Origin: Eledone cirrhosa
Lineage: Eukaryota
Direction: 5' to 3'
Length of the DNA stretch: 64,000 nucleotides
NCBI GenBank assembly: GCA_964016885.1
Contig: OZ024759.1
Span: 33,728,001 to 33,792,000 of the forward strand
A model generated the notes under the pieces. The model did no database searches. It was given only the letters and a program-made list of their open reading frames with translations, and had not been told where the DNA came from. This document shows, one piece after another, positions 2,193-64,000 of the stretch; the first letter of the stretch is position 1, and each line of letters opens with the position of its first letter. The position numbers and the translations under genes are program-made.

Positions 2193-2230
<38 letters not shown>

Positions 2231-2324
2231 AAGTATAATCCGGACGGCAGAGCTCAAGTCGTTTCGACGTGAATTTCCGGACTGATATATATATATATAT
2301 ATATATATATACCTATATATATAT

Positions 2325-3437: not shown

Positions 3438-3794
<357 letters not shown>

Positions 3795-22314: not shown

Positions 22315-22480
22315 AATAATTGTTTCTACTTTTGGCCCAAAGCCAGCAATTATACCAGTGCATTACTGGTACTTTATTTTATCAACCCCGTAAGGATGAA
22401 AGGCAAAGGTATCCTCAGTGGGATTTGAACTCAGAACATAAAGCATTGCGTCTGACGCTCTACCGATACTGACAATCCGT
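22315..22480 (-). mobile_element. Deu/Nin-domain tRNA SINE
   Basis: Near full-length reverse complement of the copy at 41528-41710. Confidence 0.85.
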
Positions 22481-31584: not shown

Positions 31585-31669
31585 CATGGATTTTATTATG
31601 CGCATTTCAAAAACAAATATTATCATGCAATAACATTTGTGTTTTCATCAGATAAAATAGGAGGACATG
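31585..31669 (-). ncRNA. type I hammerhead ribozyme, second copy of the 3501-3585 family
   Basis: Minus strand: attttat-CTGATGA-aaacacaaatgttat-tgcatg-ataatatttgttttt-GAAA-TGCGCA-TA-ataaaat. The element (~31550-31720) lies between (TA)n tracts. Confidence 0.85.
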
Positions 31670-31754
31670 ATATGAAGGTTAAAAAACACTTGTGGATAGT
31701 GCGGTTTTAAATCAACATATATATATATATATATATATAAATATGTGTGTGTGT

Positions 31755-41527: not shown

Positions 41528-41710
41528 TGGATTGGCAGTATCGGTAGAAGGTCGGACGCCATGCTTGCCCGCATAGTTACGTCCCTTTGTGGTCTGAGTT
41601 CAAATCCCGCCGAGGTTAACTTTGCCTTTCATTCTTACGGGGTCGATAAAATAAAGTACCAGTAATGTACTGGTTAATTGCTGGCCTTGTGCCAAAAGTA
41701 GAAACAATTA
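41528..41710 (+). mobile_element. Deu/Nin-domain tRNA SINE
   Basis: Full head and core domain. Confidence 0.9.
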
Positions 41711-41927
41711 TATTTACCCGGGTTCAACTCCACTGCAGGGTGGGCCAAAGTACAGGGTTACCCAAAATAACAGTATTATGGTAATAGGAATATATGAAGG
41801 TGAAAAAACAAACCCTGCTTCTTACGTTTTCATTTTTCACCGTCCAAACCTGGATTATCGTGGCTTTCTCACTTAGACTTCTTGACAATGATTCAAGTCA
41901 TCAACAAATTATTTCCTTGTCTACATG

Positions 41928-50122: not shown

Positions 50123-50126
<4 letters not shown>

Positions 50127-50307
50127 AACGAGTAGGACCCCGACGGCTAATTCTGGACTAACTTTTAGTCCAGACAGAATTAGCCGTTGAAACGGCTTGA
50201 GCTCAGCCGTCGGGGTCCTACTCGTTCCTATTACCCACTGTACTACCCTAAGTATTTAGTAATTTGGTGTGTTATGGTCCATCTGGTTCCTTACCACATT
50301 TCCTTCG

Positions 50308-54482: not shown

Positions 54483-54680
54483 CGTAGGTCCCGGGTTGAG
54501 TCGGGGATAACCACAGTAAGTAAGGTACTCAATACATGGCAGAGTAATTTTTTGTTTATGTTATAGAAGGAGCTTCTACATGACTAGTACTGTTTCATTC
54601 AGATGAAATCTTCATGTGCTTCCTGAAGATTTCATCTGAATGAAACAGTACTAGTCCTGTAGAAGCTCCTTCTATAAAAT

Positions 54681-63420: not shown

Positions 63421-63456
<36 letters not shown>

Positions 63457-63692
63457 GATAAAGTATGATCTCGACGGCAGAGCTCAAGCCGTTTCGACGG
63501 CTATTTCTACATTTAAGTAAGTGCCATACTAAGAGTGAGAAATGAAATTTCGTTTTCATTTTGTTTCAATTTATCGTTTTCGGTATGCCTGACCGATTTA
63601 ACTCACTCAATATGCAAATTAGGCTGCTCAGCCGTTAATTTTCATAAGGAAAGTATATACTTTCGAACGTTCAACTATCTGGCAGATGGGTA

Positions 63693-63737
63693 AACGGTGC
63701 TGATGATAGCTAACAAGCTTGAAACTAGTACATCGTT
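63693..63737 (+). ncRNA. minimal type I hammerhead ribozyme
   Basis: aacggtg-CTGATGA(63700-06)-t-agct/aaca/agct-t-GAAA(63721-24)-CTAG-TA-catcgtt. Helix I is 7 bp, helix III is the ACTAGT palindrome, and the GUA site follows 63730. Confidence 0.75.
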
Positions 63738-63891
63738 CCTGTGTCAGTGTTGAACAAAAAGGTGACGTGGTTGCCTTAACACCGTATGGCATAAATTCAG
63801 GCTGTTCAGTTTGTTTACAAACGAACAAAGCGACGTTAGCGCCGCTAAACTGATACGTGCATATATGTATGTGTACCTGTATGCATATGTA

Positions 63892-63922
<31 letters not shown>

Positions 63923-64000
63923 GTGCATGCTACTGTACGTCTGTATACATATATGTATGTACGTATACATGCATACTTACATTTAAGTAAGTGCCATACT

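What the first reader, a model, noticed from the sequence alone, without database searches (positions are those of the whole stretch)
63508..64000. Minimal hammerhead inside an apparent 470-bp tandem unit (retrozyme-like)
Seen: tacatttaagtaagtgccatact occurs identically at 63508-63530 and 63978-64000 (the window end), and one hammerhead of a different family lies between them (63693-63737; helix II is closed by a U-U mismatch). Established: metazoan retrozymes are short tandem units with one hammerhead each and are processed to monomeric circular RNA; PLE pseudo-LTRs are also tandem. Inference: a second unit continues beyond the window and would allow dimeric cleavage.
Basis: partly seen in the sequence, partly recalled or inferred. 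Interest (0 to 1): 0.8.

Follow-up and report, generated by a model that had tools for sequence, protein, structure and literature searches.

The report
Hammerhead retrozyme copy at window edge
This is one copy of an abundant, non-coding 470-base animal repeat that carries an intact hammerhead self-cutting-RNA motif and whose tail runs into its own start both here and in other copies, so it is likely a new member of the known 'retrozyme' jumping elements, predicted to cut well only in pairs; cutting, RNA circles and a second ribozyme past the window edge are untested.

Summary
In detail: the 23-mer is identical at 63508 and 63978, and a type I hammerhead with a U·U at the base of helix II lies at 63693-63737 (cut after 63730). 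Public contigs show the 23-mer is not a target-site duplication. In 87 contigs of one run it is preceded by the letters of 63948-63977 (29 of 30), so the head-to-tail junction belongs to the family. The left copy is cut short against a 52-bp piece of another repeat. Family variation spares the catalytic core. Also, some copies end in (AT)n at the 63574 position, so this insertion may stop at about 64044 with only one hammerhead. I put a second ribozyme (core 64170) at about 55%. Best reading: a non-LTR retrozyme copied by Penelope-type enzymes from a multimeric or circular RNA. No genome was held, the tool skipped 63878-64000, and cleavage and circles are untested. It is a new member of a known kind. 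The boldest open reading is a two-family, template-switched insertion.

The parts
63424..63454 (.). (TA)n tract at the left edge of the composite insertion; likely target
   Evidence: TRF period 2, 15.5 copies; target role inferred from the (TA)n bias of Penelope-like elements in PMC8557442
63456..63508 (-). 52-bp piece of a different repeat family ('A'), cut off at 63508; on the minus strand it reads as half a hammerhead (GAAA, 5-bp helix III, GUC) with no CUGANGA box found
   Evidence: copies at 2227-2277 (+) and 50176-50222 (-); 256 X1 contigs continue with other letters behind 63508; the half-hammerhead was read by eye from the sequence printed and is not the MFE fold
63508..63574 (+). 5'-truncated last 67 bp of the preceding unit; begins with the first 23-mer copy (63508-63530); 63574 is a candidate family end point at which some copies run into (AT)n
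   Evidence: table 7: X11 one contig into pure (AT)n behind 63574; 44 X1 and 3 X11 contigs leave behind 63555 and run into AT-rich letters at about the same point; other contigs cross 63574 (X8 record 23, X6 record 17, X11 record 9)
63575..64000 (+). body of the in-phase unit (predicted to end at 64044, beyond the window); non-coding; 36% GC over 63508-63977
   Evidence: contigs cover 63508-63877; longest stop-free frame 123 codons, longest from ATG 54; GC
63612..63619 (+). octamer motif ATGCAAAT, possible part of an snRNA-type internal promoter (weak)
   Evidence: 6 in the window against 5.67 expected, so not enriched; no variant listed at 63610-63639; newt satellite 2 has an snRNA-type promoter (PMC2220036 passage)
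63669..63755 (+). predicted extension of helix I, with a 3-nt GUA bulge at 63690-63692 at the place of the loop 1 tertiary contact
   Evidence: constrained fold; alignment to the HH9 internal loop; no variant listed at 63690-92 while 63686-88 and 63693 vary
63693..63737 (+). type I hammerhead ribozyme motif, canonical metazoan layout, U10.1·U11.1, 1-bp palindromic helix III, predicted cut after 63730
   Evidence: family variants listed only at 63693, 63697, 63704 (N7) and 63714 (loop II)
63851..63977 (+). degenerate TA/TG tail of the unit; both ends are family-conserved, the middle (63878-63947) was not tested; folds as a long hairpin, as many such tracts do
   Evidence: X11 record 15 covers 63803-63877 with 0 differences; loose ends match 63948-63977 at 29 of 30; fold; control
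63978..64000 (+). second 23-mer copy, in its normal family context; start of the repeated phase

Best explanation
This is a copy of an abundant non-coding repeat family with a 470-bp head-to-tail unit and one intact type I hammerhead motif per unit, and it likely works as a non-LTR retrozyme: multi-unit transcripts are predicted to self-cut after 63730 as hammerhead dimers, the 470-nt monomer would be ligated into a circle, and a Penelope-type reverse transcriptase would copy it for more than one round into (TA)n tracts. Shown: the motif, its conservation pattern, the family-wide tail-to-23-mer junction, the lack of coding capacity, and the truncated left end. Inferred: transcription, cleavage, circularisation and the helper enzyme. 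This insertion is read as a 5'-truncated 67 bp (63508-63574) plus a full unit (63575-64044, predicted). It then either continues into another unit (about 55%; hammerhead core at 64170, cut after 64200) or ends in (AT)n at about 64044 (about 45%).
For: Family: 9964 contigs of run X1 laid on 63456-63860 and 5484 on 63508-64000. Junction: the letters before 63508 in 87 X1 contigs match window 63948-63977 at 29 of 30, and that 30-mer is unique in the window at up to 4 mismatches. Contigs also run from the unique part into the tail up to 63877. Ribozyme constraint: within the 45-nt motif, variants are listed only at N7, loop II and two helix I positions, one of them G·U to A-U (63697 G>A); none is in the catalytic core. 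Across the unit, 18 of 28 variable positions are unpaired in the predicted circle, against 124 of 311 positions overall (p 0.008). The non-tail part folds better than shuffles (z -3.5), and + folds better than - (-154.8 against -113.7). The dimer fold lies within 0.9 kcal/mol of the cofold minimum; the monomer fold is 7.5 above its minimum. Size, GC under 50% and no ORF fit the definition (PMC7229834; Li et al. 51-972 bp). 5' truncation, partial tandems and (TA)n bias are Penelope-like traits (PMC8557442).
Against: No sequence beyond 64000 could be read (no genome held). 63878-64000 was skipped by the tool, so no contig was shown to bridge the tail and no go-back joint was seen. Of 11 variant rows at confidently paired positions, 7 break the pair and no compensatory partner is listed. 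63697 G>T would put a U·U into helix I. In the MFE fold the motif takes an inactive register (active register 2.2 kcal/mol higher over 93 nt; helix III pair probability 0.0). The tail hairpin is not exceptional: 6 of 25 control tracts have z at or below -3.25. No Rfam gathering hit. In Li et al. only 1 of 9 predicted retrozyme dimers cleaved in vitro. No autonomous partner was found: 0 matches for four motif strings in the supplement of PMC8557442, and only chance-looking or unshown hits for two others. The unit is slightly above the 150-450 bp range of PMC7229834.
Confidence: 0.72

Rival explanations
1. Same family and mechanism, but this locus is a 1.14-unit insertion that ends in (AT)n at about 64044. 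It has one hammerhead, could not release a circle by itself and is likely a dead end. This is nested within the best explanation and contradicts only the first reader's 'second ribozyme'.
For: A candidate family end at 63574|(AT)n in two sequence variants: X11 one contig; 44 X1 and 3 X11 contigs leaving behind 63555. A truncated copy plus one full copy is the typical Penelope partial tandem (PMC8557442). The monomer share of retrozyme families ranges from 0 to 1.
Against: Contigs in X3, X6, X8, X11 and X1 cross 63574-63575 with family sequence. Loose ends show only the contigs that leave, so they over-represent ends; their median length is 11-16 letters.
Confidence: 0.32
2. The unit is the upstream pseudo-LTR of an autonomous Penelope-like element whose RT/GIY-YIG body begins after about 64044; the hammerhead would process the element's precursor RNA.
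For: Hammerheads sit in pLTRs (PMC4209133), and retrozymes resemble pLTRs. The same hammerhead region occurs with other flanks: 3 X3 contigs with a median 151 different letters before 63689, and X11 contigs differing before 63689 and 63694 and behind 63758. Octopus has (TA)n-targeting Hydra and Naiad elements.
Against: The family sequence closes on itself with no ORF. No exit to a long body is among the best-supported loose ends (but 163 and 128 rows were not shown). The motif lacks the min-HHR traits of most metazoan PLEs. The Hydra-1_Obim hammerhead row differs in sequence.
Confidence: 0.15
3. A DNA-level repeat (a MITE-like element with TA/TG inverted ends, or a minisatellite spread by unequal exchange) that carries a hammerhead relic without using RNA; two copies would simply lie side by side in a TA tract.
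For: The two family-conserved tail ends are complementary (63851-76 with 63943-69) and could be read as terminal inverted repeats. The middle of the tail was not bridged. Li et al. allow local amplification by unequal crossover.
Against: Variation avoids the catalytic core and favours unpaired positions. The four G·U pairs of the outer tail arms pair on the + strand only. A candidate end at 63574 lies outside the inverted arms.
Confidence: 0.09
4. The 23-mer is a target-site duplication or a private local duplication around a 447-bp insertion.
For: Identity has no leftward extension; TSDs of animal retrozymes are longer than 4 bp when present.
Against: The 23-mer is itself family sequence. It is preceded by the tail in 87 + 2 contigs and 33 + 1 contigs, and it runs on into 63531 onwards without a listed loose end at 63530.
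Confidence: 0.03

Closest known systems
Metazoan non-LTR retrozymes of coral, mussel and axolotl (Cervera and de la Pena 2020, PMC7229834; passages and sections 14-15 read)
   Same: Non-coding head-to-tail unit, GC under 50%, one canonical-layout type I hammerhead per unit, predicted self-paired circle, many sequence variants.
   Different: The unit is 470 bp (their range 150-450) and includes a 120-bp TA/TG tail; the left end is joined to a piece of another repeat; expression, cleavage and circles are not shown here; 'octopus' has 0 occurrences in their main text (supplements not looked at).
Axolotl HHR_Amex1 and HHR_Amex2 (PMC7229834 section 15)
   Same: Amex1: a single base pair plus palindromic tetraloop in helix III. 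Amex2: U·U at the base of helix II. Both cleave much better as dimers.
   Different: This motif carries both weakening traits at once; Amex2 has a 2-bp helix III, and Amex1 is not described with the mismatch.
min-HHR of Penelope-like pseudo-LTRs (Cervera and de la Pena 2014, PMC4209133; abstract, Results, Discussion read)
   Same: Type I fold, palindromic positions 15.2-16.2, proposed dimeric action, proposed circular template for more-than-unit copying.
   Different: min-HHRs have helix II of 7-8 bp, helix I of 4-5 bp, no helix III, a single extra base between 9 and 10.1 and G10.1-C11.1. Here helix II is 4 bp, helix I is 7 bp and extended, and 10.1/11.1 is U·U.
Animal retrozymes as non-autonomous PLE derivatives (Li, Clavereau, Pollet, bioRxiv 10.64898/2026.07.22.740005; parts 1-3 of 5 read; supplements not seen)
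   Same: Unit size within 51-972 bp; monomers, dimers and multimers; proposed PLE origin.
   Different: Their 'active' criterion needs two consecutive units with complete hammerheads, which the window cannot show; no mollusc was sampled.
Hydra and Naiad clades of Penelope-like elements, including Hydra-1_Obim (Craig et al. 2021, PMC8557442; passages, section 11 and string searches of the supplement)
   Same: (TA)n insertion bias, 5' truncation, partial tandems, inverted 5'-truncated piece at the 5' end.
   Different: No ORF here; no match found to their consensus sequences by short strings; the inverted piece here is from another family.

Membership tests
Metazoan non-LTR retrozyme | canonical type I hammerhead (helix I about 6 bp, helix II 4 bp, helix III 1-2 bp with palindromic loop, intact core) | tested here: met
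   definition; core free of listed variants
Metazoan non-LTR retrozyme | family organised as head-to-tail repeats of a few hundred bp | tested here: met
   470-bp spacing; tail-to-23-mer junction in other copies and unique-part-to-tail continuity; caveat: 63878-63947 not bridged by any contig shown
Metazoan non-LTR retrozyme | [quoted passage not shown] 'active' criterion) | not testable with these tools
   window ends at 64000; no genome held; collection scans empty or chance
Metazoan non-LTR retrozyme | non-coding, GC under 50% | tested here: met
   GC 0.36; longest ATG-started frame 54 codons, longest stop-free frame 123
Metazoan non-LTR retrozyme | highly self-paired circular RNA structure | tested here: inconclusive
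   68% paired, non-tail z -3.5; variants favour unpaired sites, p 0.008, but 7 of 11 paired rows break and no compensations; tail hairpin ordinary
Metazoan non-LTR retrozyme | self-cleavage (as monomer or dimer) | not testable with these tools
   energy comparison only
Metazoan non-LTR retrozyme | expression as linear and circular monomer RNA | not testable with these tools
   see Tried and rejected
Metazoan non-LTR retrozyme | absence of LTRs, PBS and PPT | not tested
   no search for PBS or PPT was run
PLE min-HHR | no helix III, helix II 7-8 bp, helix I 4-5 bp, extra base at 9/10.1, G10.1-C11.1 | tested here: not met
   against the definition
Autonomous Penelope-like element | RT plus GIY-YIG ORF adjoining the pseudo-LTR | tested here: inconclusive
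   none in 63456-64000; the left flank is another repeat and (TA)n; the right side lies beyond the window; window ORFs were not scanned against Pfam
Penelope-type insertion footprint | fixed 3' end at (TA)n, variable 5' truncation, partial tandem, inverted 5' piece | tested here: inconclusive
   5' truncation at 63508 shown; candidate 3' end at 63574 from few short loose ends; the inverted piece is from another family
Target-site duplication | duplicated stretch is host flank, not element sequence | tested here: not met

The most novel reading that the evidence does not exclude
The locus is a two-family insertion made in one event: a Penelope-type reverse transcriptase copied two different ribozyme RNAs and joined them back to back (family A 63456-63508 pointing left into (TA)n, this retrozyme pointing right, 1 shared base). 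That would be a direct record of template switching between retrozyme families. In addition, the doubly weakened hammerhead (1-bp helix III plus U·U) would be an obligate-dimer switch that cuts only multi-unit transcripts. The plain alternatives, insertion into an older A copy or a deletion fusing neighbours, are not excluded.
Probability: 0.15. Interest if true: 0.55.

Novelty: new member of a known kind. Interest (0 to 1): 0.3.

Why it matters
If right, it adds a retrozyme family from an octopus-like genome, a group for which my searches found no description. It supplies a hammerhead that combines the two weakening traits seen separately in axolotl, which makes a clean monomer-versus-dimer cleavage test. 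It also gives base-precise predictions (end at 64044 or a second core at 64170) for the proposed but unshown more-than-unit copying of RNA circles by Penelope enzymes. It does not change what is known of the class, and this scan has already noted many such families in the same genome.

Tried and rejected
No whole genome was held, so nothing past 64000 was read. Run search: no RNA holder listed; this says nothing on expression. Raw-read run X23 laid 0 reads of 12.8 million, which the tool marks as no test. 63878-64000 had no cover because the tool skipped it as repeat, so no go-back joint could appear. Summed contig depth was not used as copy number or to estimate array length. Pattern scans: metagenome contigs 0 and 0, viral contigs 0, genome contigs 1 match, a 21-mer in a bacterial MAG (L001) with no likeness on either side, rejected as chance. 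Rfam: nothing at gathering level; the microRNA hits fall on the TA/TG tracts and were rejected. The whole-circle z of -8.1 was rejected as inflated by the clustered tail. The tail hairpin as special evidence was rejected after 6 of 25 control tracts reached the same z and 3 of 25 the same energy. Octamer enrichment was not found. An RNA-editing signal was not seen in the unique part: by my count, 11 purine and 9 pyrimidine transitions; the single A-to-G at 63971 carries no weight. String searches of the PMC8557442 supplement found no match to the motif (one of three hits for one short string was not displayed; line breaks and cut cells can hide matches). Look-ups of earlier findings by sequence and by place gave nothing, so whether the 466-468-bp families noted elsewhere in this genome are this family is not known.

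Full report
Observation. The 23-mer is identical at 63508-63530 and 63978-64000, does not extend to the left, and has no further copy in the window at up to 5 mismatches. Between the copies lies a type I hammerhead on the + strand: helix I 63693-99/63731-37, CUGAUGA 63700-06, U 63707 facing U 63720, a 4-bp helix II with a 4-nt loop, GAA, a palindromic helix III (63724-29), and a GUA triplet with the predicted cut after 63730. My descriptor found 4 such motifs in the window and none in 100 of 100 block-shuffled windows. Rfam gives nothing at gathering level. The HH9 model aligns the motif at 18.5 bits (gathering 52) and places 63691-92 on its helix I internal loop. The window is microsatellite-rich animal DNA. 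A dispersed repeat at 41528-41711 resembles an octopus SINE; that label is recalled, not tested. Earlier AI notes also call the genome octopus-like.

What the 23-mer is. No genome was held, so I used public runs. 20 of 24 listed runs from 15 studies hold words of 63456-63860. I laid 7 different runs of the 24 in two calls. In run X1, 9964 contigs were laid on 63456-63860 and 5484 on 63508-64000, with many variants, so this is an abundant family. In 87 X1 contigs and 2 X3 contigs the letters before 63508 are not those of the window's left flank. The X1 consensus matches window 63948-63977 at 29 of 30; one search repeats this with 33 X1 contigs and 1 X8 contig. That 30-mer is unique in the window at up to 4 mismatches, so it is not generic microsatellite. 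Contigs also run from the unique part into the tail as far as 63877 (X11 record 15, 0 differences). The right copy of the 23-mer is therefore the normal head-to-tail junction of the family, and a TSD is excluded. The limit of this evidence: the tool skipped 63878-64000, so no contig was shown to bridge the middle of the tail. The tables also hid 163 and 128 loose-end rows.

The left end. 63456-63508 is another repeat, with copies at 2227-2277 and 50176-50222. In 256 X1 contigs it continues with other letters behind 63508. Both elements are thus cut at 63508 and share one base, with (TA)15 to the left. On the minus strand this piece reads by eye as GAAA, a 5-bp helix and GUC, that is half a hammerhead; I found no CUGANGA for it. 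The two elements stand back to back, like the inverted 5'-truncated piece described for Penelope-like insertions (PMC8557442 passages), except that the families differ.

The right end. One X11 contig leaves at 63574 into pure (AT)n. 44 X1 and 3 X11 contigs leave at 63555, run through a variant of 63556-63574 and then into AT-rich letters. These are few and short (median 11-16 letters), and other contigs cross 63574 with family sequence (X8 record 23, X6 record 17, X11 record 9, X3 record 11, X1 record 1). If 63574 is the family's fixed 3' end, the insertion is 67 bp of one unit plus a full unit 63575-64044. It then stops or goes on to a second hammerhead (core 64170, cut after 64200; arithmetic). 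I judge 55:45 for continuing; this is a judgement, not a measurement.

Is the ribozyme under selection? Within the 45-nt motif the listed variants are 63693 A>T, 63697 G>A and G>T, 63704 T>C (the free position 7) and 63714 C>T (loop II). None touches the core, the U·U, helix II or helix III. 63697 G>A turns a G·U into A-U; G>T would break the pair, and no partner change is listed. The GUA bulge at 63690-92 has no listed variant while its neighbours vary. Over the unit, 18 of 28 variable positions are unpaired or ambiguous in the predicted circle, against 124 of 311 positions (p 0.008). However, 7 of the 11 rows at paired positions break the pair, without compensation; two of these 7 are 63697 in the inactive MFE register. 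The non-tail part folds better than shuffles (z -3.5), and the + strand better than the - strand. The tail hairpin (z -3.25) is ordinary, since 6 of 25 control tracts do as well.

Mechanism. The single-copy active fold is 7.5 kcal/mol above the minimum. The double-hammerhead fold of two copies is 0.9 above the cofold minimum, which fits the dimer mechanism reviewed in PMC6155905 (passages). The inferred cycle: read-through or internally promoted transcription (an octamer at 63612-19 is only a weak lead); dimer cleavage to a 470-nt monomer; ligation by a host ligase, as argued for coral, mussel and axolotl (PMC7229834 abstract passage); then more-than-unit reverse transcription by a Penelope-type enzyme into (TA)n, as proposed in PMC4209133 (Discussion). 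None of these steps was shown here, and only 1 of 9 predicted Xenopus dimers cleaved in Li et al..

Comparison. It works like, and on the testable features meets the definition of, metazoan non-LTR retrozymes. The two-hammerhead criterion, cleavage and circles could not be tested. It is not a PLE 'minimal' hammerhead by the definition. The U·U is known from axolotl Amex2 and the 1-bp helix III from Amex1; their combination in one motif I did not see in the sections read. Searches for hammerhead with octopus, cephalopod or Penelope listed no paper on cephalopod retrozymes. The library lacks most subscription papers; I did not open the supplements of PMC7229834 or PMC4209133, and those of the bioRxiv preprint are closed. 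Either could list octopus motifs. Searches were seen as search listings only. Earlier notes of this scan describe 310-, 422- and 466-468-bp hammerhead repeats in this genome and a 485-bp one in another. They are unchecked leads; they lower the surprise and do not count as support.

Verdict. The feature is real, a new member of a known kind, interest 0.3. The boldest reading left standing is a two-family, template-switched insertion with an obligate-dimer ribozyme (probability 0.15).

Noticed in passing
window 54560-54675: A second, unrelated type I hammerhead (core 54623) also has U·U at the base of helix II. It is preceded by an inverted copy of itself, so the region folds as one long hairpin, and it ends about 25 nt after the cut site in (TA)n.
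   Followed up: partly
window 3505-3585 (+) and 31585-31670 (-): Two copies of another type I hammerhead family with a long helix II and a palindromic helix III; the 3519 copy ends about 40 nt after the cut site in (TA)n.
   Followed up: partly
window 63456-63508, 2227-2283, 50123-50235: Repeat family A sits in (TA)n tracts and carries GAAA-helix III-GUC without a visible CUGANGA; at 50123-50235 it forms an inverted pair with an internal deletion in the left arm. It may be one of the rearranged hammerhead families of earlier notes; not tested.
   Followed up: partly
window 63704 and 63714, run X11: Run X11 (same coded organism as X1, 88 million contig letters, library not on record) is dominated by the variant letters (3771 of 4034 and 5317 of 5527 depth) that are a minority in X1 (272657 of 759562; 725560 of 1497335). 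Unexplained.
   Followed up: no
window 63508-63807, runs X6 and X8: Runs labelled with other organisms hold exact pieces (X8: 300 nt, 0 differences) in only 2 and 6 contigs against 5484 in X1. Trace carry-over or diet is my inference; transfer between species is not excluded.
   Followed up: no
window 63689-63758: The hammerhead region occurs with different flanks in some contigs (X3: 3 contigs, median 151 other letters before 63689; X11: before 63689 and 63694, behind 63758), suggesting sister families or an autonomous partner.
   Followed up: no
window 41528-41711 and copies at 22315, 29301, 29571, 31186, 43692, 48376, 53469, 58885: A dispersed repeat of about 120-190 bp with many copies; it resembles a cephalopod SINE by recall only.
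   Followed up: no
window 63649-63664: A perfect 16-bp palindrome containing TATATA, 30 bp downstream of the octamer.
   Followed up: no
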